Below, in pieces: positions 10,431-53,577 of a DNA stretch of 64,000 bases. The stretch lies in the NCBI RefSeq assembly GCF_003790525.1, contig NZ_CP033635.1; one strand, given 5' to 3'. The notes below the pieces were generated by a model. The model made no database searches and was not told where the DNA came from. It was given only the letters and a program-made list of their open reading frames with translations. Within the stretch, counting starts at the first letter, position 1. Every line of letters begins with the position of its first letter. Source of the stretch: Escherichia coli (GTDB lineage: Bacteria > Pseudomonadota > Gammaproteobacteria > Enterobacterales > Enterobacteriaceae). Both the position numbers and the translations under genes were made by a program.

Positions 10431-11207
10431 TTAACCACGTTTCGCCTTCGCTTTCGCCTTCGGCGTCGTGGTCTGTTCTCTGGTTGTATCTTTCTGTGCC
10501 GCAGGCTCCTGTGCGGCAGCGGCTTCATCCTGTCCGGCCTTTTTCAGGGCCCGTGAAAGCGTGGCAATCTCACGTTTTACCCCCGCATTCGGGTTAAGGT
10601 GCATTGCCTCACGGAACAGCTTCAGACTCACCGCCATGCTGTCGGCATCGGTCAGGCCACGACGGGCAAAGGCGCATGCCTTGCACAGCTTGGCGCGGAC
10701 CTCATCGGGCATGTCCCGGTTCGCGACAATTTGCCAGAGGGTGTCCAGCGGTTCGATGTAGCCGGACAAATCGGCGTGTGCATCCGTTCCGGCCTGTGTC
10801 AGAACAGGGTTGCAGATTTCCTCGGTCAGTACCGTGGCTGCCGTACGCCCGAAGTTGTCAGGCATCGTGAGGTTGTGGCGAACCACATAATCCCCGATGC
10901 GCAGTGCAAGCGCCAGGTCGCCACAGTCCACGGCCCACACCATGAGTGTGGCTATCACCTCATCCTGCTGTCCGCCGTCGGCTTCCAGCGTGCCGTCTAT
11001 CCAGCCTGCAAAACCCGGCAGCATTTCACGCTTGAGCGCGGCCTTTGCCGCTTTTGCCTGGACGCCCTTTATGCGTTGCTGTGCCAGGCGCAGACGGTGA
11101 AGGACCTGCTCATGAGCCGTGCGGGCCACGATATCCTCGTTTTCTGCTGCCGTTCCTGCCCGTAAAGCCATCACGTGCTGGAAATGAGCCTGTGCCGGTG
11201 TCAGCAT
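10431..11207 (-). CDS. phage terminase endonuclease (small) subunit (P2 gpM-like)
   Basis: 258-aa ORF following the major capsid gene; basic Lys/Ala-rich C-terminus. Confidence 0.75.
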   Translation of the reverse strand: MLTPAQAHFQHVMALRAGTAAENEDIVARTAHEQVLHRLRLAQQRIKGVQAKAAKAALKREMLPGFAGWIDGTLEADGGQQDEVIATLMVWAVDCGDLALALRIGDYVVRHNLTMPDNFGRTAATVLTEEICNPVLTQAGTDAHADLSGYIEPLDTLWQIVANRDMPDEVRAKLCKACAFARRGLTDADSMAVSLKLFREAMHLNPNAGVKREIATLSRALKKAGQDEAAAAQEPAAQKDTTREQTTTPKAKAKAKRG

Positions 11208-13368: not shown

Positions 13369-15120
13369 ATGATTCAGGATACATTTGTTCGCCAGCGGGC
13401 ACGCCAGCTGTACTGGCAGGGTTACCCTGTTGCGGAAATTTCCCGCCTTATGGGTATCAACCAGAACACGATCCATTCGTGGAAAAAACGCGACCAGTGG
13501 GATGAGACGCCCCCGGTTCAGCGTGTCACGCAGTCCATGGATGCGCGACTCATTCAGCTCACGGAAAAACAGAATAAAACAGGCGGGGACTTTAAGGAAA
13601 TTGATTTGCTGACCCGTCAGCTTAAAAAGCTGCATGACGGTCTGCCGGATGAGACGGCAACAGGAAAGAAAGGCCGGGCGAAAAAACACAAAAATCATTT
13701 CACGCCGGAACAGATCGCGGCGCTGCGGGAAAAAATTACCGACAGGCTGGCCGGACACCAGCGCAAATGGCTTGATGCTATCGGTGCCTGTGAGCGTGCC
13801 GGAATTACTGACAGGATGATCCTGAAATCCCGCCAGATTGGGGCGACCTGGTATTTTGCGCAGGAAGCGCTGCTGATGGCGCTGCGTGACGATGTGGCAC
13901 AACCTTACCAGCGTAACCAGATTTTTTTGTCTGCGTCTCGTCGTCAGGCGCTCCAGTTTAAAAGCATTATTCAGAAGGCTGCATCTGAAGTTGATGTGGA
14001 ACTGAAAGGGGGCGATAAAGTCATCCTCTCCAACGGTGCAGAGCTGCATTTTCTCGGCACTTCTGCGGCCACCGCGCAAGCGTACACAGGGAATCTGTAT
14101 TTTGATGAGTTTTTCTGGACGGGGCGTTTCGCAGAGCTGCGCAAGGTGGCTGCTGCTATGGCAACGCTGGATGGTTTGCGGTGTACCTATTTTTCCACGC
14201 CATCAAGTGAAACACATGAGGCGTATGCATACTGGAACGGCGATCACTGGAATGAAGGGCTTCGTACTCATAAACGTCAGCATTTTGATGTGAGCTGGAA
14301 TGCGCTTCATAACGGCCTTATCTGTCCTGACTATATCTGGCGGCAAATTGTGACGCTGGAAGATGTGGTCAGTCAGGGATGGACGTTAACCAACATTGAC
14401 AAAATCCGGCGCAATAACACTGAAGACGAGTTCCGCAATCTCTACATGTGTGAATTTGCTCGCGAAGGGGAATCGGCATTTAACCTGAATATCCTGATTG
14501 GCTGCGGTGTTGACGGATACGACGAGTGGCCGGACTGGAAGCCGTTTGCACCGCGTCCGATGGGGAACCGCCCTGTGTGGATTGGGTACGACGCCAACGG
14601 CAGTAGCGGGAACGGTGACAGCGGGGCGGTTGTCGTGGTGGTGCCGCCAGCCGTACCGGGCGGGCGTTTTCGCACCGTGGAGACGCGGCGGGTGCAGGGG
14701 CTGGAGTTTGAGGCGCAGGCGAAGGTGATTGAAGAGTTCACCTTTCGCTATAACGTTGAGCATATCGGTATTGACGTAACCGGCGGTCACGGGGATGCGG
14801 TGTATCAGATTGTGAAGCGCTTTTTTCCGGCAGCCATTCCCTACACCTTCACCCTGTCATCAAAGCGCACGCTGGTTCTGAAGATGCTGCAGCTCATGCG
14901 CGCCGGGCGGTGGGAGTACGACCGCAGCGAGCGCGAACTGGTGAGCGCCTTTAACGCGGTACGCAAAACAAAAACGCAGGCCGGATTTATCACCTACGAA
15001 ACAGATCGCGCAAGAGGCGTAAGCCATGGCGATCTTGCATGGGCCACCATGCTGGCCGTTATCAACGAACCTGTCGGCGGTGAACATGATGCCGCCCCCT
15101 TCAGTGTTACGGAGTTCTGA
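13369..15120 (+). CDS. phage terminase large (ATPase) subunit (P2 gpP-like)
   Basis: 583-aa ORF, divergent from O, followed by portal gene. Confidence 0.85.
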   Translation: MIQDTFVRQRARQLYWQGYPVAEISRLMGINQNTIHSWKKRDQWDETPPVQRVTQSMDARLIQLTEKQNKTGGDFKEIDLLTRQLKKLHDGLPDETATGKKGRAKKHKNHFTPEQIAALREKITDRLAGHQRKWLDAIGACERAGITDRMILKSRQIGATWYFAQEALLMALRDDVAQPYQRNQIFLSASRRQALQFKSIIQKAASEVDVELKGGDKVILSNGAELHFLGTSAATAQAYTGNLYFDEFFWTGRFAELRKVAAAMATLDGLRCTYFSTPSSETHEAYAYWNGDHWNEGLRTHKRQHFDVSWNALHNGLICPDYIWRQIVTLEDVVSQGWTLTNIDKIRRNNTEDEFRNLYMCEFAREGESAFNLNILIGCGVDGYDEWPDWKPFAPRPMGNRPVWIGYDANGSSGNGDSGAVVVVVPPAVPGGRFRTVETRRVQGLEFEAQAKVIEEFTFRYNVEHIGIDVTGGHGDAVYQIVKRFFPAAIPYTFTLSSKRTLVLKMLQLMRAGRWEYDRSERELVSAFNAVRKTKTQAGFITYETDRARGVSHGDLAWATMLAVINEPVGGEHDAAPFSVTEF

Positions 15121-16175
15121 TGAGCAGAAAAAATAAACAACGACGTACGAACGCCCGCGCAGCGCAGGGCAGCCTTGCGGATTCCCTGCGAAGCGACCCG
15201 ACACTGAGTGCCTTCACGTTTGAAGGACCTTACCGGCTGTCAGGGGCCGACCTGCTGGACAGCATGTACTGCGCCGACAACGGGCGGTGGTTTGAAACGC
15301 CCGTTGACTGGTACGGACTGGCACGGGCTGCCCGCCAGACGTCCTGGCACCAGTCGGCGCTCAGCTTCAAACGTAATGTGCTGCTGGGCTGCTATATTCC
15401 ACATCCTCTGCTGTCCCGCCAGGAGTTCGCCGGGGTGGCGATGGACTGGTTTGTGTTCGGTAATGCCTGTCTTGAGCTGCGGCGCAACATGCTTGGCGAA
15501 CCGCTGGCCCTGCGCCGGGCGCTGGCGAAATACATGCGACGTGGCAGCGATATGAAATCATGGTGGTATATACAGGAAGGACAGGAAGAGTACCGCTTTC
15601 GTGAGGGGACGATATGCCACCTGATGAATCCTGATATCAACCAGGAGATTTACGGGATGCCGGATTACCTGGGCGGCCTGCTGTCTGCCAGCCTGTCACA
15701 TTCCGCCGATATCTTCCGCAAGCTCTACTACGATAACGGCTCACACGCGGGCTGTATTGTCTACATCGGTGCGGCGCAGGTTGACCGTGAAAGCATGGAA
15801 AAACTGCGGGAAACACTGCAAAGCGCGCGTGGTGGCGGGGCGTTTAAAAATCTGCTCATCCACGCGGCGGGAGGTGGTAAGGATGGCGTACAGATTTTGC
15901 CGTTTCAGCAAATCACCGCAAAGGATGAGTTCATGAACGTCAAGGCTGCATCGCGTGATGATGTGCTGTCCGTGCACCGTGTACCGCCGCAGCTGATGGG
16001 GGCCATGCCGGGTGAGAAGGGGTCATTCGGGGATGTGGAGAAGGCAGCCCGTGTGTTTGCCATTAACGAACTGATGCCCGTCATGGAAGCAATGAAACAC
16101 GTCAACGACTGGCTGGGCGAAGAGGTGATCCGTTTTAACCCTTACGCACTGTTAGACACCCAGCCCATATCCTGA
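15120..16175 (+). CDS. phage portal protein (P2 gpQ-like)
   Basis: 351-aa ORF with start overlapping the P stop; P2 Q-P-O arrangement. Confidence 0.85.
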   Translation: MSRKNKQRRTNARAAQGSLADSLRSDPTLSAFTFEGPYRLSGADLLDSMYCADNGRWFETPVDWYGLARAARQTSWHQSALSFKRNVLLGCYIPHPLLSRQEFAGVAMDWFVFGNACLELRRNMLGEPLALRRALAKYMRRGSDMKSWWYIQEGQEEYRFREGTICHLMNPDINQEIYGMPDYLGGLLSASLSHSADIFRKLYYDNGSHAGCIVYIGAAQVDRESMEKLRETLQSARGGGAFKNLLIHAAGGGKDGVQILPFQQITAKDEFMNVKAASRDDVLSVHRVPPQLMGAMPGEKGSFGDVEKAARVFAINELMPVMEAMKHVNDWLGEEVIRFNPYALLDTQPIS

Positions 16176-16241: not shown

Positions 16242-16955
16242 TTAACGAAGTGCTGATGGCGCTCGCTTTTTCAGGTGATTAGCGATGTGCTTTTTCATGT
16301 GCATAACAACATCGCCCCAGGCTTCTTCGCTGGGTTTATTGATAAATACGCGAACAGAAATATCGTCTTCCACCCGGACTCTCAGAGACACCCGTTCCGC
16401 ATCTACTGAATATAATTCAAGTGCAATAACCACGCTTACCGGGTAGCTGCTGTCAGATGACTTAACCCAGGTTCGCACGGCCATGCGGAAAATATTGTCT
16501 GGTGCAGATGCGATATTGTGGACTGAAAGAGGACTAAAATCCGCCGCTGTCTTACATGGCAAGCCTGTCTCCACGTAGCGGTGCAGGTCGCCATCATCGT
16601 CTTCCCAGTACATGGATGGAAGCCCCAGCCATTCTTCATAGAAATCAATCAGCCTTGCCGCTTCATCCCGCAAAATTTGAGCTGCCTCAGCGCGTTTTTC
16701 TTCAGCTTCACGATTGATCTGGCATAAATCATTAAAGTGGCTCATGACATTATCCTCTTTTGAGTTGATGCCTGCCGCTATTCTGACTTTGCCCGGGTTC
16801 TCCTGCAAGCTGGTTATTCCTTCAGATAATTTCACAACATCTCCAACCTTGTAGCCATCATCGCCGGGCGGATGCTTACGCAACCCCGCAACTCTGACGA
16901 CATATTCTCGCTGCCTCAGTGCGATTTTGACGGCCTTATCTTTCACCCCCATCAA
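16242..16955 (-). CDS. hypothetical protein, stand-alone cargo gene at the P2 tin/old-equivalent position; start ambiguous
   Basis: Open frame with normal codon usage; the listed first codon is TTG with ATG as codon 2 (16950-16952); an internal ATG at 16745 has a strong AAGAGGA Shine-Dalgarno; GC lower than the late genes; no family recognised. Confidence 0.55.
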   Translation of the reverse strand: MMGVKDKAVKIALRQREYVVRVAGLRKHPPGDDGYKVGDVVKLSEGITSLQENPGKVRIAAGINSKEDNVMSHFNDLCQINREAEEKRAEAAQILRDEAARLIDFYEEWLGLPSMYWEDDDGDLHRYVETGLPCKTAADFSPLSVHNIASAPDNIFRMAVRTWVKSSDSSYPVSVVIALELYSVDAERVSLRVRVEDDISVRVFINKPSEEAWGDVVMHMKKHIANHLKKRAPSALR

Positions 16956-17171
16956 ATCAAGCTTTTACGTCTTTTTTACGCTCAGCGTGAGAAATACAGC
17001 CATTCTGTTGTGTCGCTGCAACATCGTTCAGGGAATGCTATTTACCCCCTGAAACGCGGGCTGTTCCCCCGTCACCTGCGCGCAGAAAAAGGCCTTTTTT
17101 CGTGCACGCACGGATCCCCGACGGATCCAGACGCCACACGGGCCGGAAGGGCAAAAAGTCGTTCAAAAAAA

Positions 17172-17198
17172 TTGTGCAAATTTGTGCACTATTGTGCA
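17172..17198. repeat. three direct TTGTGCA repeats at exact 10-bp spacing
   Basis: attgtgcaaa / tttgtgcact / attgtgcatt read directly; immediately beside the terminator of the upstream operon. Confidence 0.6.
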
Positions 17199-17205
17199 TT
17201 GAAAT

Positions 17206-17228
17206 AAACGCCCTGGAGGAGGGCGTTT
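17206..17228 (-). terminator. rho-independent terminator after the five-gene small-protein operon
   Basis: AAACGCCCT-GGAGG-AGGGCGTTT 9-bp stem, followed on the minus strand by a U-rich run. Confidence 0.6.
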
Positions 17229-17235
17229 TGCTCAT

Positions 17236-17637
17236 CTATTTATAGCCTTGCCCCTTACTGGCCAGCGCCCTGATGGCAGGGCGTGCCAACACCATATTTT
17301 GGCAATGATGAATTGCCCGGCAAAATTCATCTCTACCCATTGGATGCTCAACTGGCAATGTAAAATACAGGTTCCATGCATCGCCTAAAAGTTGGGCTAT
17401 CTTTTGTTCTTCAGATGTCAGCAAGCGGTACTCCCCATCCTTGATGTAGTCACTTGTGCCATCGACCTGCTGTTCTGCAATGTGGAAAGCACCTATTGGT
17501 TTTGCTTCCAGCGATGCCAAAGCAATCCGTGCCAGTTTTTCCGCTTCTTCGGCTGGCAGTACAACGTTGCTACCAGGTCCGTATGTTTCGCGCCACTGCC
17601 TGATTGTCAGTAGTCGCTCTTTGGTTATAGTGGTCAT
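17236..17637 (-). CDS. hypothetical protein (133 aa)
   Basis: ORF with start overlapping the upstream stop; last gene of the operon following gene A; no family recognised. Confidence 0.5.
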   Translation of the reverse strand: MTTITKERLLTIRQWRETYGPGSNVVLPAEEAEKLARIALASLEAKPIGAFHIAEQQVDGTSDYIKDGEYRLLTSEEQKIAQLLGDAWNLYFTLPVEHPMGRDEFCRAIHHCQNMVLARPAIRALASKGQGYK

Positions 17638-18365: not shown

Positions 18366-18793
18366 TGTTGTTTCCTCCCGTTCTGTGCTGGTCTGGCGAA
18401 TGAATTGCGTTGTGGTGAAAAGACCATTCGCGCCAGCGCGGCCTTGTGATTGACTGTGTTCAGTGTTCTGGCCAGTCCGCCGTTGTGCCTGCGTGTCCGC
18501 TCTTCGTGATATCTCTGCATGATTTTCCCGGCAGGCGTGCACGGCTCCGGTTCCTCCGGCGAACGGCGCGGACGAATGACGACAGTCCAGCTATGGCTCT
18601 CGCTGCCCGGCCGCCTGTTGAGTATGTCGGCGATGGTGGTCTCCGTGGTGCGATCGGGGCTGACTATCGTGATTTCCAGCTCGTCGCCCGGTTGTGGCCT
18701 TGTGGCAGGCCTGAACAGTGTCAGCACCGGCATACGCTGGCGCATGATGGCCTCAAACTGTGGGCGCTGCATGGTGCAGCAAAATCGCGTCAT
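18362..18793 (-). CDS. hypothetical protein (143 aa), Arg/Pro-rich
   Basis: ORF with start immediately after the gene A stop; GC-rich with alternative frames also open, so coding status is uncertain. Confidence 0.4.
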   Translation of the reverse strand: MTRFCCTMQRPQFEAIMRQRMPVLTLFRPATRPQPGDELEITIVSPDRTTETTIADILNRRPGSESHSWTVVIRPRRSPEEPEPCTPAGKIMQRYHEERTRRHNGGLARTLNTVNHKAALARMVFSPQRNSFARPAQNGRKQQ

Positions 18794-21300
18794 GCTCCCG
18801 CCTCCACTGGCTGCTCTGTGATGATGTGACGGGCTGACTCATCCCAGTACGCTGTTCCCCCGTTATCCAGACGCACACGGGCACCGTTACGCACGGAGAT
18901 GATGGCCGCGTCAGGCAACTGCACACCCAGCGCATCAAGTTCGCGGGCGATTTGCGTGTCCGTCGCGGTATCCGCAGGCACGACAATCCCCACCCTTACA
19001 GGGGTGTCAGATGCCGGTGTGGTGTCGTTTTGTCCGGTTTTTGCGCCCGACGGCTGATTTTTAATCTGATTACGCAGTTTTCTCCGATCGCCCCTGCTTA
19101 ACGTATTCAGCCAGCTTTCCAGGTTCTCTTCGGGAAGCGTCAGTCGTCCGGGGTCCTGCCTGTTTTCTGGTCCGTGATTGTCTGTTTTTTCATCCCGGGG
19201 ACAGTTATTGCCACGAGTCCAAGGGGCGACGGGGTCGCCCTGAAGGTCAAAACCCTCGCCCGTGCGGTTGTCTGGTATTGTTTCTTTTTTAACCAGTTTC
19301 CACTCGTCCGGATGGGTGCATATGGTGTACCGCTCTCCGAGCGACGGGGCGCAGATTCCGTAGATACGTTGAGGGAATTCACCGTAGTCGTTGGCTTCGT
19401 CTGCGGTTTCGTATGCGGTGCGGACCAGATACTGGTTGCGCGGAATGAGCACACCACCCTGTTTCATGATGTAGGTGGCAAAACATCCCACATCTGCGGC
19501 AGCCATAATGGCGTCAATATCGTCATGATCGAGGTGCTTCGGTGATGCCGGGTTGCGCTCCATCTGGCTTGCAAGGCGGCGGAGTTCACGCCATACCTGG
19601 CGGGGCGGAATGCCGAAAAACTGGAACTGACGGATGCGGTGAAGGCTTGCCCAGGCAATGGCGTTCTCCACGGTTTCCGCCATGGTTTTCCCGGATTCCT
19701 CATCAACGTAAGGTTTTCCGGTTTTCGGATCATTGTTGTGGAAAGCGCTGGCGTCCAGGTTCTTACCGATATAGGTTGCGATATAGCTTGCCGGTGTGCC
19801 TTTTTCCGGGTCTATCTTCTCGCATTTAAAGCGCGGTGAAATATCGTCCCCCAGTTCGTGGCGATCTGATTTAATTGCTGCTTCGCGCATAATTTCGATG
19901 ATGCGCTCTGCGTTCTCCGGGGAAGTGAATACCAGCATATGCCAGTGTGGCGTGCCGTCATGGTGTGGCTCAGCGGTTCGCACGCCGTACCAGCCCAGCC
20001 CCTCTTTTTTTATTTTTTTTCTTACGGCTGCGAAGAAGTCGTAAACCAGATAATCACTGGCATCTCGTACTGTGGCACCGTTGTATTTCGGGTTCAGGCT
20101 GCCGTTCTCGTTCACGCTGTGAAAGCGGGAAGGGGTGGTTACTGTGATGAAGAATGCGACGTCAGCCCGTAATTCGGCCACCATCTCCATCCCTCTGACG
20201 CAGACCATCATTTCATTGCGGCGGTTGCGTGGATTACCCAGGCCAGCCCAGTACACGTCCTCCAGACTCAGGCGCTCGCCGTCTTCGTTTTCAATATCCC
20301 AGCTTTTGAGAAAGTCACAGGTGCGCTGGCGCTTCTCGCGGAACTCCAGTAGTGACTCATGGCTGATATAGGGGGATTGTTTACGTGACACTCTGCCGGC
20401 GGCGCGCAGTAACTCCTCCCGCCAGAGATCGGCGACGTGGCGTAACTGGTTGTTCCACCAGGTCGCGCAGGTGATGCGCAGTACCGCACCCGGAACCCGT
20501 TCAGGGTCCGGCGGTGTGCGTCGGTTGTGCCTGATTTCGAGTTCCGGCCAGTATGGCGGGACCATGCCCAGAATTAAGGCTGTGCGTGCCACCTTCTGGT
20601 AGGCCAGCAGCCAGATAACCGGGCTGTCATTATCCTTGCCTGTCCGTTCAAGAACTTCATCACATATGCGTTCAAATTCTGCGGCGAATGCCTGGGCTGT
20701 CAGTGTGGCGATGCGCTGGATTTCGTCACGGGTGAGTTGCGGCAGTGTGAGCAGTTCTTCAAGGCGATGGCGCACGACGGTGGTTTTGAATGCCGGCGTT
20801 GCAAAGCGGTCGTTAACCCTTTCAATACGTTTCAGGCGCGCACGCAGTCCACGGCGAACGAAATTATCGGCCACGTATGCGCTGTTGTTTTTTACACCTT
20901 CACTGCGGGCACTTTGCTGTTTCCGGTTCAGTCGTGCCAGATCACGGATCAACACACTGGCAAGAAACGAGGGCAGGGTGCGAAGTTCGGCTATCGCCTC
21001 CGATACCGCCGTTGGCGGATTTTCGCGTCTGTGTCGTGCCAGCTTATCCAGCCTTATCTGCCGCTCTTCGTCCCGGTGAAGGTGTGAATTAATTTGCTTA
21101 CCTTTGTCCGTGGTTGTCAGGAAGGCCACGGTTTCTTCATCCAGCCGGGCCTCAGTGCGAATGTCTTCGGTGAGGTAGTCACGGATTGCCCGTTGTAATG
21201 CGGTTGGCTTCTGCGGTAATGCTCTGCCGAATGTCTCAGGATCAATAACCGGCAGCGGGGCGTTCCACGGGTACGCCAGGTGCGTGTGGTGATGGCTCAT
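18790..21300 (-). CDS. phage replication initiation endonuclease (P2 gpA-like, rolling-circle)
   Basis: 836-aa ORF; contains a GTPHWHMLVF HUH-type motif; position in the early operon as for P2 A. Confidence 0.8.
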   Translation of the reverse strand: MSHHHTHLAYPWNAPLPVIDPETFGRALPQKPTALQRAIRDYLTEDIRTEARLDEETVAFLTTTDKGKQINSHLHRDEERQIRLDKLARHRRENPPTAVSEAIAELRTLPSFLASVLIRDLARLNRKQQSARSEGVKNNSAYVADNFVRRGLRARLKRIERVNDRFATPAFKTTVVRHRLEELLTLPQLTRDEIQRIATLTAQAFAAEFERICDEVLERTGKDNDSPVIWLLAYQKVARTALILGMVPPYWPELEIRHNRRTPPDPERVPGAVLRITCATWWNNQLRHVADLWREELLRAAGRVSRKQSPYISHESLLEFREKRQRTCDFLKSWDIENEDGERLSLEDVYWAGLGNPRNRRNEMMVCVRGMEMVAELRADVAFFITVTTPSRFHSVNENGSLNPKYNGATVRDASDYLVYDFFAAVRKKIKKEGLGWYGVRTAEPHHDGTPHWHMLVFTSPENAERIIEIMREAAIKSDRHELGDDISPRFKCEKIDPEKGTPASYIATYIGKNLDASAFHNNDPKTGKPYVDEESGKTMAETVENAIAWASLHRIRQFQFFGIPPRQVWRELRRLASQMERNPASPKHLDHDDIDAIMAAADVGCFATYIMKQGGVLIPRNQYLVRTAYETADEANDYGEFPQRIYGICAPSLGERYTICTHPDEWKLVKKETIPDNRTGEGFDLQGDPVAPWTRGNNCPRDEKTDNHGPENRQDPGRLTLPEENLESWLNTLSRGDRRKLRNQIKNQPSGAKTGQNDTTPASDTPVRVGIVVPADTATDTQIARELDALGVQLPDAAIISVRNGARVRLDNGGTAYWDESARHIITEQPVEAGA

Positions 21301-25655: not shown

Positions 25656-26177
25656 TTAGCCGGGCTGGTTGTTTTTGAGTTGCTCCAGTTTTGAAACTCT
25701 GGGGGAGTAAACCTGCTTACCTTTAACGGTCTGGCAGTCCTCCTTGTTTGCCGGTGAAAACTTTCTTTTCTTGCGGTCGTACGTCCAGTAGCTTTTCCAG
25801 TTGTGCCACTCTGGCGGTTCGCACTCCAGTAGTTCGTCGGCTAGTTCGTCCCAGGCTTTGGCGTTAAACCACCATGTACCGTCTGACTTTTCATCTTCGG
25901 GATTTGAGCGCGTTTTGTGACCCGGCATCTGCCCGCGCTGAATGGCGGCGCGTAGCGCAGATTTTGTTACCCCCAGATAGGCAGCCCCTTTTTCCAGTGA
26001 CACAAGTCCTGCGACTGGGCCGTCCAGTCGTAGGGTTGCGCCCTTTTTGTAGGACGGTCTGGTTTTGGTTTCCAGGTGTTCGTTGTCGTTGGCAGCTTCA
26101 ATGAATTCATTGTCCGCGCCATCATCCTGAACCGGTTGAGCGCCAGATAACTCTTTGTCGGCAATAATCTCCCGCAT
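25656..26177 (-). CDS. first early-operon protein, Cox/Apl-like helix-turn-helix protein with acidic N-terminal and basic C-terminal extensions
   Basis: Divergent from the repressor gene; HTH-like LEKGAAYLGVTKSALRAAIQRG; at 173 aa it is larger than P2 Cox. Confidence 0.45.
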   Translation of the reverse strand: MREIIADKELSGAQPVQDDGADNEFIEAANDNEHLETKTRPSYKKGATLRLDGPVAGLVSLEKGAAYLGVTKSALRAAIQRGQMPGHKTRSNPEDEKSDGTWWFNAKAWDELADELLECEPPEWHNWKSYWTYDRKKRKFSPANKEDCQTVKGKQVYSPRVSKLEQLKNNQPG

Positions 26178-26213
26178 TTGTTATCCTCTTGCATTGGTGC
26201 GCTTGTTGCGCCT

Positions 26214-26259
26214 TTTGATGATTTTTGATGACTTGTAAAGATAATCGTACGGTTATCTT
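26214..26259. promoter_or_regulatory. immunity switch region: two direct TTTGATGA repeats 10 bp apart plus a 22-bp near-perfect palindrome
   Basis: Direct repeats at 26214-26221 and 26224-26231; palindrome AAGATAAT-CGTACG-GTTATCTT at 26238-26259; lies between divergent repressor and cox-like genes; P2 C is known to bind direct repeats. Confidence 0.5.
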
Positions 26260-26280
26260 TTGTAGGAGATTAATCCCCAA

Positions 26281-51312: not shown

Positions 51313-53577
51313 ATGAAAATAACGACAGTCGGCGTATGCATAATTTGCGGAATTTTTCCGTTGCTGATTTTGCCCCAATTGCCAGGGACAGTAACCCTTG
51401 CGTTTCTGACTCTCTTCGCCTGTGTACTGGCATTTATCCCTGTTAAAACCGTCCGTTATATCGCGCTGACGTTGCTGTTTTTCGTTTGGGGCATATTAGC
51501 AGCAAAGCAAATTTTGTGGGCAGGAGAAACCTTAACTGGCGCGACGCAGGATGCAATAGTTGAGATCACTGCTACTGACGGCATGACCACTCATTACGGT
51601 CAAATCACTCATCTACAAAGTCGACGTATATTCCCTGCGCCAGGCCTCGTACTGTATGGCGAATATCTTCCGCAAGCGGTTTGTGCCGGACAAGTATGGT
51701 CAATGAAACTCAAAGTTCGTGCAGTTCATGGTCAACTTAATGATGGCGGCTTTGATAGCCAGCGTTATGCCATTGCCCAGCATCAACCGCTCACCGGCCG
51801 TTTTCTGCAGGCAAGTGTCATTGAACCGAATTGTAGCCTGCGTGCACAGTATCTGGCGTCATTACAAACAACGCTGCAACCCTATCCGTGGAATGCGGTT
51901 ATTCTTGGTTTAGGTATGGGGGAACGGTTATCCGTTCCCAAAGAAATCAAAAATATCATGCGCGATACTGGAACGGCGCATTTAATGGCGATATCGGGAT
52001 TGCATATCGCTTTTGCGGCGTTGCTGGCTGCCGGACTCATTCGCGGTGGGCAAGTTTTTCTGCCTGGGCGCTGGATCCACTGGCAAATGCCATTAATTGG
52101 CGGAATCTGCTGTGCTGCTTTTTATGCCTGGCTGACTGGGATGCAACCTCCTGCATTGCGTACCGTGGTGGCGCTTGCTACGTGGGGAATGCTTAAGTTA
52201 AGTGGGCGACAATGGAGTGGCTGGGATGTATGGATATGTTGTCTGGCGGCAATTTTGCTGATGGATCCTGTTGCCATTCTCTCGCAAAGTTTATGGCTCT
52301 CTGCCGCTGCGGTCGCGGCACTGATTTTTTGGTATCAGTGGTTTCCCGGTCCTGAGTGGCAACTGCCGCCGGTATTGCGTGCACTTGTTTCCCTCATCCA
52401 TCTGCAACTGGGAATCACACTCCTGCTTATGCCCGTGCAAATCGTCATATTTCATGGCATTAGTCTGACCTCGTTTATTGCAAATCTATTTGCAATTCCC
52501 CTGGTGACATTTATCACGGTTCCGTTGATCCTCGCCGCTATGGTTGTGCATTTAAGCGGGCCGTTAATCCTGGAAGAGGGATTATGGTTTCTTGCCGACC
52601 GGTCTTTGGCTTTACTTTTCTGGGGGTTAAAGAGTTTGCCGGAAGGGTGGATCAACATTGCTGAACGTTGGCAATGGCTATCATTTTCCCCATGGTTCTT
52701 ACTGGTGGTATGGCGATTAAACGCCTGGCGAACGTTGCCAGCAATGTGTGTGGCTGGAGGCTTGCTGATGTGCTGGCCGCTGTGGCAAAAACCTCGACCT
52801 GACGAGTGGCAAGTGTACATGCTTGATGTCGGGCAAGGGCTGGCAATGGTGATAGCCAGAAACGGCAAAGCGATTCTCTATGACACGGGACTGGCCTGGC
52901 CTGAAGGGGATAGTGGGCAACAACTGATTATCCCCTGGCTCCACTGGCATAATCTTGAACCGGAAGGCGTTATTCTGAGTCATGAACATCTGGATCACCG
53001 GGGAGGGCTGGACTCAATATTGCATACATGGCCGATGTTATGGATCAGAAGTCCGTTAAACTGGGAACACCATCAGCCCTGTGTGCGTGGCGAAGCGTGG
53101 CAATGGCAAGGATTGCGTTTCAGCGTGCACTGGCCTTTACAAGCTAGCAACGATAAAGGAAATAACCATTCCTGTGTGGTTAAGGTTGATGACGGGACGA
53201 ATAGCATTCTTCTAACCGGTGATATTGAAGCCCCCGCTGAACAAAAGATGCTAAGCCGTTACTGGCAGCAAGTGCAGGCAACATTGCTTCAGGTACCTCA
53301 CCATGGCAGTAATACCTCATCATCGTTGCCATTAATTCAGCGAGTGAATGGAAAAGTGGCACTCGCATCGGCATCGCGCTATAACGCATGGCGACTGCCC
53401 TCAAGCAAAGTTAAACATCGCTATCAACAACAGGGTTATAAGTGGCTTGATACTCCACATCAGGGTCAAATAACGGTCGATTTTTCAGCGCAAGGCTGGC
53501 GGATTAGCAGCCTCAGAGAGCAAATTTTACCTCGTTGGTATCATCAGTGGTTTGGCGTGCCAGTGGATAACGGGTAG
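51313..53577 (+). CDS. ycaI: ComEC-family inner membrane protein YcaI
   Basis: ORF 51283-53577; start at MKITTVGVC (754 aa); metallo-beta-lactamase-like C-terminus. Confidence 0.85.
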   Translation: MKITTVGVCIICGIFPLLILPQLPGTVTLAFLTLFACVLAFIPVKTVRYIALTLLFFVWGILAAKQILWAGETLTGATQDAIVEITATDGMTTHYGQITHLQSRRIFPAPGLVLYGEYLPQAVCAGQVWSMKLKVRAVHGQLNDGGFDSQRYAIAQHQPLTGRFLQASVIEPNCSLRAQYLASLQTTLQPYPWNAVILGLGMGERLSVPKEIKNIMRDTGTAHLMAISGLHIAFAALLAAGLIRGGQVFLPGRWIHWQMPLIGGICCAAFYAWLTGMQPPALRTVVALATWGMLKLSGRQWSGWDVWICCLAAILLMDPVAILSQSLWLSAAAVAALIFWYQWFPGPEWQLPPVLRALVSLIHLQLGITLLLMPVQIVIFHGISLTSFIANLFAIPLVTFITVPLILAAMVVHLSGPLILEEGLWFLADRSLALLFWGLKSLPEGWINIAERWQWLSFSPWFLLVVWRLNAWRTLPAMCVAGGLLMCWPLWQKPRPDEWQVYMLDVGQGLAMVIARNGKAILYDTGLAWPEGDSGQQLIIPWLHWHNLEPEGVILSHEHLDHRGGLDSILHTWPMLWIRSPLNWEHHQPCVRGEAWQWQGLRFSVHWPLQASNDKGNNHSCVVKVDDGTNSILLTGDIEAPAEQKMLSRYWQQVQATLLQVPHHGSNTSSSLPLIQRVNGKVALASASRYNAWRLPSSKVKHRYQQQGYKWLDTPHQGQITVDFSAQGWRISSLREQILPRWYHQWFGVPVDNG

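What the first reader, a model, noticed from the sequence alone, without database searches (positions are those of the whole stretch)
17172..17228. Three TTGTGCA repeats at exact 10-bp spacing next to the operon terminator
The repeats sit on one face of the helix and are placed between the end of the gene A operon and the stand-alone cargo gene. This suggests a multimeric DNA-binding site: a regulator of the cargo gene, or part of the packaging region, since the cos site should lie near the portal gene in P2-type phages and I could not identify it.
Basis: seen in the sequence. Interest (0 to 1): 0.4.

Follow-up and report, generated by a model that had tools for sequence, protein, structure and literature searches.

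The report
Outer repeat arm of phage cos site
The three TTGTGCA repeats are real and are the conserved outer edge of this P2-like prophage's DNA-packaging (cos) site, most likely a docking array for the packaging enzyme rather than a switch for the neighbouring cargo gene.

Summary
TTGTGCA sits at 17172, 17182 and 17192, and it is the only 7-mer in the window repeated three times at equal spacing.

The window holds a P88-like (Xuanwuvirus, P2-family) prophage.

Right of cosN, the same layout occurs in this phage, P2, 186, PSP3 and satellite P4:
- one proximal xTGCA site at +26/27 (R0, here 17100-17106);
- a spacer of variable sequence;
- a phased xTGCA triple starting at +98/99.

The R0-to-R1 distance is exactly 72 bp in 79 of 79 distinct spacers. 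The array is present in 79 of 79 relatives found through their portal gene. Homology stops at the last base of the third repeat, after which 23 different cargo flanks begin.

Satellites of about 12 kb that lack portal and terminase genes share only a block of about 150 bp with these phages. That block corresponds to window 17046-17198 and ends exactly at repeat 3.

Best explanation: a distal terminase-recognition arm of cos, similar in design to lambda cosB. Which protein binds it, and at which packaging step, is inferred rather than shown.

A role as regulator of the cargo gene is not supported. I found no description of the distal array, but I could not read the key 1990 cos paper.

The parts
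17046..17198 (.). Whole cos module as delimited by comparison: the only DNA shared between these phages and portal-less, terminase-less satellites.
   Evidence: blastn of four satellites against 14 phage loci. Alignments run from about -126 to +26 relative to the first base of R1. In 1148 of 5426 complete E. coli genomes, homology to this block nearly always ends at 17198.
17058..17076 (.). Predicted cosN, the cleavage site that gives the cohesive ends: GGGCTGTTCCCCCGTCACC. On the other strand this reads GGTGACGGGGGAACAGCCC.
   Evidence: Homologous to P2 GGCGAGGCGGGGAAAGCAC (13 of 19 identical, counted by eye) and to 186. Intermediate relatives read TTGCTCCCCCGCCTCGCC in the same alignment columns. 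The nick positions were not measured.
17086..17099 (.). Palindrome AAAAAGG/CCTTTTT between cosN and R0.
   Evidence: Read from the sequence. Relatives carry a different palindrome (AAAAACGCG/CGCGTTTTT), and P2/P4 carry CCCG..CGGG, at the same place. Its function is unknown.
17100..17106 (+). R0, the proximal site: TCGTGCA preceded by a T-run. Its TGCA starts at +27 from cosN.
   Evidence: The columns 'tttttgtgca' are almost invariant across 49 distinct relatives. This corresponds to ttttaATGCA at +26 in P2, 186, P4 and PSP3, which by my count is the end of the published 55-bp cos core.
17107..17164 (.). GC-rich spacer of fixed length but variable sequence. Here it contains the direct repeat ACGGATCC at 17110-17117 and 17121-17128.
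   Evidence: The distance from the TGCA of R0 to the TGCA of R1 is 72 bp in 77 of 79 distinct spacers. The other two score 82 only because their R1 has a mismatch. Pairwise spacer identity falls as low as 25%.
17165..17171 (+). A7 tract directly abutting R1.
   Evidence: Positions -5 to -1 are A in 50-51 of 51 distinct relatives. It was not part of the first search pattern.
17172..17178 (+). R1: TTGTGCA. TGCA at +99.
   Evidence: Intact in 77 of 79 portal-anchored relatives.
17182..17188 (+). R2: TTGTGCA. TGCA at +109.
   Evidence: Intact in 78 of 79 portal-anchored relatives.
17192..17198 (+). R3: TTGTGCA. TGCA at +119. This is the last conserved base before the variable hotspot.
   Evidence: Exact in 60 of 79 relatives and one mismatch in the rest. 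Information content drops from 1.2-2.0 bits in R3 to 0.3 bits or less from +27 onward.
17206..17229 (-). Intrinsic terminator of the converging early (gene A) operon. It is adjacent to the cos module but not part of it.
   Evidence: -15.2 kcal/mol hairpin followed by a T-run. It is replaced by other sequences in relatives.
10431..11207 (-). gpM-type small terminase subunit gene, the presumed reader of the array. This is an inference.
   Evidence: RefSeq annotation of an identical E. coli genome. The protein is 38% identical to P2 gpM.
13369..15120 (+). gpP-type large terminase subunit gene.
   Evidence: 48% identical to P2 gpP.
15120..16175 (+). Portal gene (gpQ type), the landmark next to cos.
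   Evidence: In relatives the portal gene ends 370-430 bp left of R1.

Best explanation
The three heptamers (R1-R3) form the distal arm of the prophage's cos packaging site.

The site runs from about 12 bp left of cosN (17058-17076), through a proximal TGCA site (R0, 17100-17106) and a 72-bp fixed-length spacer, to R3 (ending at 17198).

The likely mechanism has three steps:
1. The phage terminase, most probably an oligomer of the small subunit gpM, contacts R0 and the three 10-bp-phased copies on one face of the helix.
2. The A-tract, and possibly a host bending protein, help to wrap or loop the roughly 150-bp segment.
3. The large subunit gpP is thereby positioned on cosN for cutting and packaging.

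Shown here: the repeats; their fixed geometry relative to cosN; their conservation independent of neighbouring genes; the same layout in P2, 186, PSP3 and P4; and their retention in satellites that must borrow a helper's terminase.

Inferred: which protein binds, and whether the array acts at initiation (like lambda cosB) or at termination (like lambda cosQ).
For: (1) A cosN homologue lies 96 bp to the left.

(2) TGCA positions measured from the end of cosN:
- window: 27, 99, 109, 119
- P2: 26, 98, 108, 120
- 186: 26, 32, 98, 108, 117, 121
- P4: 26, 32, 72, 98, 108, 121
- PSP3: 26, 32, 98, 108, 117
The chance of three or more TGCA in such a 41-bp window is about 0.001 per lineage.

(3) 48 of 52 distinct P4-like satellite cos arms keep TGCA at 98, 108 and 121, even when Psu is only 62% identical and the spacer has diverged.

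(4) R0-to-R1 is 72 bp in 79 of 79 distinct spacers, with identity down to 25%.

(5) In the portal-anchored sample, 79 of 79 loci have the array at +95 to +97, followed immediately by 23 different right flanks.

(6) Satellites of about 12 kb carry integrase, toprim primase, an Ogr/Delta-like protein and their own P2-family capsid gene, but no portal or terminase. They carry the complete TTGTGCA-type cos and share with the phages only the block from -126 to +26, which ends at R3.

(7) Across genera (Enterobacter phage phiT5282H, and prophages in Pantoea, Erwinia, Kosakonia and Brenneria), the heptamers and their 10-bp phasing persist while the inter-heptamer spacers and the flanks change.

(8) One paper reports that a P2/P4 cosmid with longer cos flanks transduces about 2000 times better than one with shorter flanks (PMC9594776).
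Against: There is no binding or packaging experiment for this array, in any phage, that I could find.

The published definition of the P2/P4 cos is a 55-bp core, which by my count ends at R0. The distal array may therefore be only stimulatory.

fiAA91-ss and the P2 of strain T22 have only one full distal copy plus one degenerate copy, so three intact copies are not universally required.

R1 and R2 were fixed by my search patterns. Their invariance in those sets is partly by construction. Only R3, the A-tract, the spacing and the portal-anchored set are free of that bias.

The portal-anchored set is closely related (portal identity 81-83% to the window's, three loci 100%).

The cosN nick positions are predicted, not measured.
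Confidence: 0.75

Rival explanations
1. The array is part of cos but is read by a host architectural protein rather than by terminase. Its role would be to bend the DNA so that terminase bound near cosN can act.
For: The TGCA core is kept across lineages whose small terminase subunits are only 38% identical. An invariant A-tract abuts R1. The phiCTX record annotates IHF sites and repeats around its cos. tCAAAAAAATTG resembles the IHF consensus, but with one extra base in the gap (my reading).
Against: I know of no E. coli nucleoid protein with a TGCA or TTGTGCA direct-repeat specificity. The flanking bases differ by phage lineage (ATGCA versus TTGTGCA versus TTTCTGCR in phiCTX), which fits a phage-encoded reader.
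Confidence: 0.1
2. Operator array for a regulator of the adjacent cargo or hotspot gene.
For: In P2 the equivalent triple overlaps the -35 region of the old-tin promoter; the annotated transcript starts lie 25-50 bp downstream. Direct repeats 10 bp apart are typical of response-regulator and Cox/Apl-type binding sites (general knowledge).
Against: The array is kept next to 23 unrelated right flanks in either orientation, often directly abutting a terminator. No promoter-like site is predicted at 17100-17300 facing either gene. In P4 the array is on the psu side of cos and the cargo is on the other side. There is no cluster of the motif in the C-cox switch region of this prophage.
Confidence: 0.04
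3. Back-up intrinsic terminator or insulator on the minus strand. R2 and R1 pair as GTGCA/TGCAC and are followed by T7, which would stop early-operon read-through from crossing cos.
For: The scan lists this hairpin plus T-run as terminator-like. The T-run, which is the A-tract on the + strand, is invariant.
Against: The stem is only 5 bp and folds at -6.1 kcal/mol, against -15.2 for the real terminator 8 bp upstream. The fifth pair depends on the base after R2, which is C in 80% of relatives and G, T or A in the rest. P2, 186 and P4 triples have spacings of 10/12 or 10/13 and no adjacent T-run. This idea does not explain R3, R0 or the fixed 72 bp.
Confidence: 0.04
4. Recombination junction. 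The repeats would be the crossover site used to exchange hotspot cargo, and that would be why variation starts right after R3.
For: The conservation boundary at 17198 is sharp. One relative (L105) has a deletion joining R0 to R2, so the copies can recombine. Rousset et al. speculate that cos ends promote exchange at the hotspot (PMC9122126).
Against: A crossover site does not need three phased copies, a fixed 72-bp distance to R0, or retention in P4, where the array does not border the hotspot. A sharp boundary is also what purifying selection on a functional site next to free-to-vary DNA would produce.
Confidence: 0.05

Closest known systems
cos site of phages P2 and 186 and satellite P4 (19-nt cohesive ends within a '55-bp conserved cos region', Ziermann and Calendar 1990, as cited in PMC3931495 and PMC9594776)
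   Same: Homologous cosN. Same position downstream of the portal gene and beside the cargo hotspot. Same T-run plus TGCA site at +26/27. Same xTGCA triple starting at +98/99. Also shared with satellites.
   Different: The repeat unit is TTGTGCA at exact 10/10 spacing, instead of (A)ATGCA(C/A) at 10/12 or 10/13. cosN differs at 6 of 19 positions. The palindrome CCGCGCC-N6-GGCGCGG in the spacer of P4 and 186 is replaced here. The head and packaging proteins are only 36-48% identical to those of P2. The distal triple lies outside the 55 bp usually quoted and is not annotated in the P2, 186 or P4 records.
Phage lambda cosB (R3, R2, R1 sites for the small terminase subunit gpNu1, plus the IHF site I1)
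   Same: Several short repeats near cosN, with bending between them, used to assemble terminase. Three copies. This is a resemblance in design (textbook knowledge; references listed in PMC9611059).
   Different: No sequence or protein homology was tested or is claimed. In lambda the R sites are not simple 10-bp-phased direct heptamers. It is not known whether the P2-family array lies on the first-packaged side, as cosB does, or on the last-packaged side, as cosQ does.
phiCTX cos-flanking repeats (R3-R6) and IHF sites, as annotated in NC_003278
   Same: A P2-family phage in which repeats and IHF sites around cos have been formally annotated. A T-run plus CTGCA site lies just right of cosN, and further TGC(A/G) copies lie about 80-110 bp out.
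   Different: The motif and spacings differ, and the host is Pseudomonas. I did not read the original description.

Membership tests
P2-family cos site | A 19-nt GC-rich cosN homologous to GGCGAGGCGGGGAAAGCAC | tested here: met
   Window 17058-17076 reads GGTGACGGGGGAACAGCCC on the other strand, 13 of 19 identical to P2 by eye. Relatives with TTGCTCCCCCGCCTCGCC in the same alignment columns bridge the two forms.
P2-family cos site | Lies downstream of the portal gene, between the portal gene and the right-end cargo hotspot | tested here: met
   The portal gene ends 370-430 bp left of R1 in relatives. Here it ends about 1 kb left because of an inserted gene. The variable region starts at 17199.
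P2-family cos site | Conserved right flank ending in a T-run plus TGCA about 26 bp from cosN (the end of the 55-bp core) | tested here: met
   TGCA at +27 here and at +26 in P2, 186, P4 and PSP3. The site is nearly invariant in 49 relatives.
P2-family cos site | Also carried by satellites that depend on the helper's terminase | tested here: met
   Satellites of about 12 kb without portal or terminase genes carry the same cos type, including R1-R3.
P2-family cos site | Cut by terminase to give 19-nt 5' cohesive ends, and sufficient for packaging of a plasmid | not testable with these tools
   Needs virion DNA end mapping and transduction assays. The one linear record of a relative (LR595891) ends 77 bp right of the predicted cosN, so it does not help.
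Small-terminase binding array (lambda cosB type) | Three or more repeated elements close to cosN, in helical phase or with a bend between them | tested here: met
   Three copies at 10-bp spacing, an A7 tract, and a fourth copy 72 bp away.
Small-terminase binding array (lambda cosB type) | Specifically bound by the small terminase subunit | not testable with these tools
   No binding data exist. gpM is encoded at 10431-11207.
Small-terminase binding array (lambda cosB type) | Lies on the side of cosN that is packaged first | not tested
   I could not establish the direction of P2-family packaging from the papers available to me.
Operator array of a cargo-gene regulator | Overlaps or adjoins the promoter of the regulated gene and travels with that gene | tested here: not met
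   No promoter-like site is predicted at the array. There are 23 unrelated right flanks. In P4 the array is separated from the cargo by cosN.
Intrinsic terminator | Stable GC-rich hairpin followed by a T-run, with the pairing conserved | tested here: not met
   5-bp stem at -6.1 kcal/mol. The closing pair is not conserved.
Known RNA family | Match to an Rfam covariance model | tested here: not met
   The only hit is a chance-level one, at E = 0.49.

The most novel reading that the evidence does not exclude
P2-family cos sites are not 55-bp sites. They are bipartite assemblies of about 150 bp: cosN, a proximal TGCA site, and a helically phased TGCA triple held exactly 72 bp away. The flavour of the repeat (ATGCA versus TTGTGCA) would define packaging-specificity classes that match helpers to their own satellites, including a class of P4-like satellites that carry their own capsid gene. 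The outer repeat would also set the exact inner border of the anti-phage defence hotspot.
Probability: 0.4. Interest if true: 0.6.

Novelty: new member of a known kind. Interest (0 to 1): 0.45.

Why it matters
It locates the cos site of a prophage type present in about a fifth of complete E. coli genomes (1148 of 5426).

It suggests that the working cos of the whole P2/P4 family extends about 70 bp beyond the quoted 55-bp core, with a rigid geometry.

This has three consequences:
- It is directly testable with cos-plasmid transduction.
- It matters for P2/P4 cosmids and transducing particles, where longer cos flanks were reported to raise transduction about 2000-fold without explanation (PMC9594776).
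- It explains why the defence-gene hotspot of P2-like phages begins at one precise base.

It also gives a sequence signature for pairing satellites with the helper type that can package them.

Tried and rejected
1. Record ends as cos. I took the ends of the linear record LR595891 (P88_4B11), equivalent to 17153/17154, as the cos cut. I rejected this because the alignment with more distant relatives and with P2/186 places cosN 77 bp to the left.

2. Cox/Apl-type or repressor sites. There is no cluster of the motif, even with one mismatch, in the C-cox region (about 26168-26270) or elsewhere.

3. DnaA boxes, Ogr/Delta TGT-N12-ACA sites and CRP. Compared by eye, none fits. The IHF consensus nearly fits tCAAAAAAATTG but with the wrong gap length, so I left it as a possibility only.

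4. Sigma-70 promoter using a repeat as the -35 element. None was predicted.

5. Rfam. No real hit.

6. Faster divergence of the small terminase subunit. I asked whether it diverged more than the other head proteins, as a hint of changed DNA specificity. It did not: 38% identity against 36-48% for the others, so this is uninformative.

7. Literature. Six searches and several papers gave only the '55-bp cos' statement. Ziermann and Calendar 1990 and the Christie and Calendar review are not held. The supplement of PMC9594776 does not give the cosmid sequences.

8. P4-like satellites found through Psu. All are of the P2/186 (ATGCA) type and none of the TTGTGCA type. The TTGTGCA-type satellites came from the genome scan instead.

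9. Function of the neighbouring ORFs. PADLOC and Pfam returned nothing for the 237-aa protein.

Full report
**Observation**

The sequence at 17165-17200 reads aaaaaaaTTGTGCAaatTTGTGCActaTTGTGCAtt. The heptamer occurs exactly at 17172, 17182 and 17192, and only once more in the 64 kb window, at 52544. It is under-represented overall, with 4 copies against 15 expected.

A scan for any 7-mer repeated three times at equal spacing of 8-12 bp returns only this site. One of 300 shuffles produced such a triple.

The hairpin 8 bp to the right (17206-17229) is a strong terminator for the converging minus-strand operon, at -15.2 kcal/mol.

A fourth copy with one mismatch, TCGTGCA, lies at 17100-17106.

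**Context**

The region is 100% identical to several E. coli chromosomes and about 90% identical to phage P88 and its relatives (Xuanwuvirus, Peduoviridae).

The RefSeq annotation of an identical genome gives this gene order:
- small terminase (gpM type), capsid and scaffold on the minus strand;
- large terminase at 13369-15120 and portal at 15120-16175 on the plus strand;
- a 237-aa hypothetical gene at 16242-16955 on the minus strand;
- about 280 bp of non-coding DNA that holds the repeats;
- the end of the early operon, including the replication endonuclease (gpA) at 18790-21300.

This is the P2 layout, in which cos lies just beyond the portal gene.

**Where cos is**

I first suspected the ends of the linear record LR595891 (P88_4B11). 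They fall 19 bp left of the first repeat.

A scan of viral contigs for TTGTGCANNNTTGTGCA then brought in about 50 related loci, some distant. In their alignment, the distant relatives read gcgcgcTTGCTCCCCCGCCTCGCCtgcgcgc in the columns where the window reads gcgggcTGTTCCCCCGTCACCtgcgcgc. The former is plainly the P2 cohesive-end sequence GTGCTTTCCCCGCCTCGCC in this orientation.

The cosN homologue is therefore at 17058-17076. The LR595891 ends are not at cosN. The nick positions themselves remain a prediction.

**A shared architecture**

Written in the same orientation, the DNA right of cosN in the window, P2, 186, PSP3 and satellite P4 has the same plan:
- about 20 bp containing a small palindrome;
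- a T-run followed by xTGCA;
- a GC-rich spacer;
- three xTGCA copies.

| Element | TGCA start positions from the end of cosN |
|---|---|
| window | 27, 99, 109, 119 |
| P2 | 26, 98, 108, 120 |
| 186 | 26, 32, 98, 108, 117, 121 |
| P4 | 26, 32, 72, 98, 108, 121 |
| PSP3 | 26, 32, 98, 108, 117 |

The background TGCA rate gives 0.19 expected in a 41-bp window. The chance of three or more is about 0.001 for each lineage.

Among 52 distinct cos arms of P4-like satellites collected through Psu, 48 have TGCA at exactly 98, 108 and 121. This holds even where Psu is 62% identical and the spacer has diverged.

P4 is said to share only the cos region with P2 (PMC9122126; PMC9594776). A motif cluster that P4 keeps at the same distance from cosN is therefore very likely part of the packaging signal.

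By my count, the quoted 55-bp core runs from 7 bp left of cosN to the proximal ttttaATGCA. The distal triple lies outside it. It is not annotated in the P2, 186 or P4 records. The phiCTX record does annotate repeats and IHF sites around its cos.

**Conservation of the TTGTGCA type**

The search patterns fixed R1 and R2, so I looked at features that were free to vary. In 51 distinct relatives:
- R3 is 82-100% conserved per position.
- The last five positions of the A-tract (-5 to -1) are conserved at 98-100%.
- The three-base linkers vary (75-82%).
- Information content collapses to 0.3 bits or less at the first base after R3.

In a sample anchored on the portal protein, and so blind to the repeats, 79 of 79 loci carry the array 95-97 bp from cosN. 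R1 is intact in 77, R2 in 78 and R3 in 60, with one mismatch in the remaining R3 copies. Twenty-three different sequences start immediately after R3.

This sample is closely related (portal identity 81-83% to the window's, three loci 100%), so it tests the boundary more than deep conservation.

In complete E. coli genomes, 1148 of 5426 carry the block. The alignments almost always stop at query position 149, which is window 17198.

The distance from the TGCA of R0 to the TGCA of R1 is 72 bp in 77 of 79 distinct spacers. The other two score 82 only because their R1 has a mismatch. Pairwise spacer identity falls to 25%. P2, 186, P4 and PSP3 also show 72 bp. A length held this exactly while the sequence drifts points to a fixed protein-DNA geometry of about seven helical turns.

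**Satellites with the TTGTGCA-type cos**

A scan of one genome per species for AAATTGTGCAAANTTGTGCA found two kinds of hit.

The first kind is the same cos in prophages of Pantoea, Citrobacter, Erwinia, Trabulsiella, Enterobacter, Kosakonia, Yokenella, Brenneria and Izhakiella.

The second kind is five loci (L231, L236, L237, L243, L244) where the full cos, with R0 and R1-R3, is not next to a portal gene.

These loci are elements of about 12 kb. L237 has a terminal overlap 12,207 bp apart, which suggests a circular molecule. They encode:
- integrases and a toprim primase;
- an Ogr/Delta-like zinc-finger protein;
- P4 epsilon-like and cI-like proteins and an Icd-like protein;
- their own P2-family major capsid protein, 36% identical to the prophage's;
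- no portal, terminase or tail genes.

Fifty-three complete E. coli genomes contain at least 80% of the L236 segment.

Their DNA similarity to 14 phage loci is confined to -126 to +26 relative to R1. That corresponds to window 17046-17198 and again ends at the last base of R3.

An element that must be packaged by a helper's terminase has thus kept exactly this block. This is the strongest evidence here that R1-R3 belong to the functional cos.

**Mechanism**

What is shown is a bipartite site with strict spacing and helical phasing, kept by phages and by their parasites, and independent of neighbouring genes.

What is inferred is that terminase reads it. The small subunit gpM (10431-11207) is the natural candidate, because small subunits are the DNA-recognition components of cos and pac phages (PMC9611059). 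Repeated, phased sites suit an oligomer that wraps DNA.

The head and packaging proteins of this phage are only 36-48% identical to those of P2. That fits the shift of the repeat from ATGCA to TTGTGCA but proves nothing.

I could not establish whether the array works at initiation, as lambda cosB does, or at termination, as cosQ does. I could not determine the direction of P2-family packaging from the papers available.

**Rivals**

*Cargo-gene operator.* This is contradicted by the 23 unrelated flanks, by the absence of a predicted promoter, and by P4, where the array and the cargo are on opposite sides of cosN. In P2 the triple overlaps the -35 region of the old promoter. I read that as a promoter placed in the first free space.

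*Minus-strand terminator* (R2/R1 hairpin plus T7). The hairpin is weak at -6.1 kcal/mol. Its closing pair is not conserved. It does not account for R0, R3 or the 72-bp rule.

*Recombination junction.* This would explain the sharp boundary, and one relative shows an R0-R2 deletion (L105). It would not explain the geometry or the P4 case.

**Comparison and novelty**

The site is a member of the P2-family cos sites and works like a lambda cosB-type array in design.

What may be new:
- the recognition that the family's cos includes a distal phased triple held 72 bp from the proximal site;
- the existence of two repeat flavours, each with its own satellites;
- the fact that this array marks the exact inner edge of the defence hotspot described by Rousset et al.

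I found no description of this in the library I could search. The original 1990 cos paper and the phiCTX genome paper were not readable, so prior description cannot be excluded.

One paper reports, without explanation, that a P2/P4 cosmid with longer cos flanks transduces about 2000 times better (0.035 against 1.7e-5; PMC9594776). That is consistent with a functional distal arm.

**Verdict**

Confidence is 0.75 that the repeats are a functional part of cos read by the packaging machinery. Interest is moderate.

Noticed in passing
window 16242-16955 (minus strand): The 237-aa 'cargo' gene lies between the portal gene and cosN, on the opposite side of cos from the usual hotspot. Most relatives lack it: their portal gene ends about 430 bp left of R1. 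A few relatives (L021, L045, L096) have a larger gap of about 1050 bp at this point, so there seems to be a second insertion point. The protein matches only phrog_5091 (unknown function), with no Pfam or PADLOC hit.
   Followed up: partly
L236, L237, L243, L244, L231; E. coli STEC379 NZ_CP091024 4151860-4163738 (locus L329): Satellite-like elements of about 12 kb with integrase(s), toprim primase, an Ogr/Delta-like protein, P4 epsilon-like and cI-like proteins, an Icd-like protein and their own P2-family major capsid gene (36% identical to the prophage's). They have no portal, terminase or tail genes, and they carry a TTGTGCA-type cos. In strain STEC379 (locus L329) the element lies next to hpt. 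At least 80% of the L236 segment is present in 53 complete E. coli genomes. I did not check whether this type has been described.
   Followed up: partly
L105 (IMG/VR contig), equivalent to window 17100-17188: This relative reads ...gcgcgttttTTGTGCACtatTGTGCAgcag. That is a deletion joining the proximal site R0 to R2, which removes the spacer and R1. The copies can evidently recombine with each other, and this prophage is probably defective for packaging.
   Followed up: no
L241 (Candidatus Sodalis endolongispinus contig): A more distant P2-like prophage (portal 47% identical) has cosN, the proximal TGCA site and the TTGTGCA copies in the opposite orientation relative to the portal and terminase genes. 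The repeats lie between cosN and the portal gene.
   Followed up: no
window 17110-17128; P4, 186 and relatives at the equivalent place: The spacer of P4, 186 and many relatives contains the palindrome CCGCGCC-N6-GGCGCGG, or a close variant, midway between R0 and R1. In the P88 group it is replaced by a direct repeat, ACGGATCC-N3-ACGGATCC. A second small palindrome lies between cosN and R0 (17086-17099). It changes sequence between lineages but stays palindromic.
   Followed up: no
LR595891.1 (P88_4B11), both record ends; equivalent to window 17153/17154: The ends of this linear GenBank record fall 77 bp right of the predicted cosN, inside the cos spacer. The record's coordinates probably do not reflect the physical genome ends.
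   Followed up: partly
window 17236-17637 (minus strand): This 133-aa ORF at the end of the early operon looks composite. Residues 1-76 match phrogs of unknown function, and residues 72-133 match a 67-aa 'DNA ligase' phrog. RefSeq annotates only a partial pseudogene here.
   Followed up: no
whole window: TTGTGCA is depleted across the window: 4 exact copies against 15.0 +/- 4.1 expected, and 185 one-mismatch copies against 266 +/- 18 expected. Three of the four exact copies are in the cos array.
   Followed up: no
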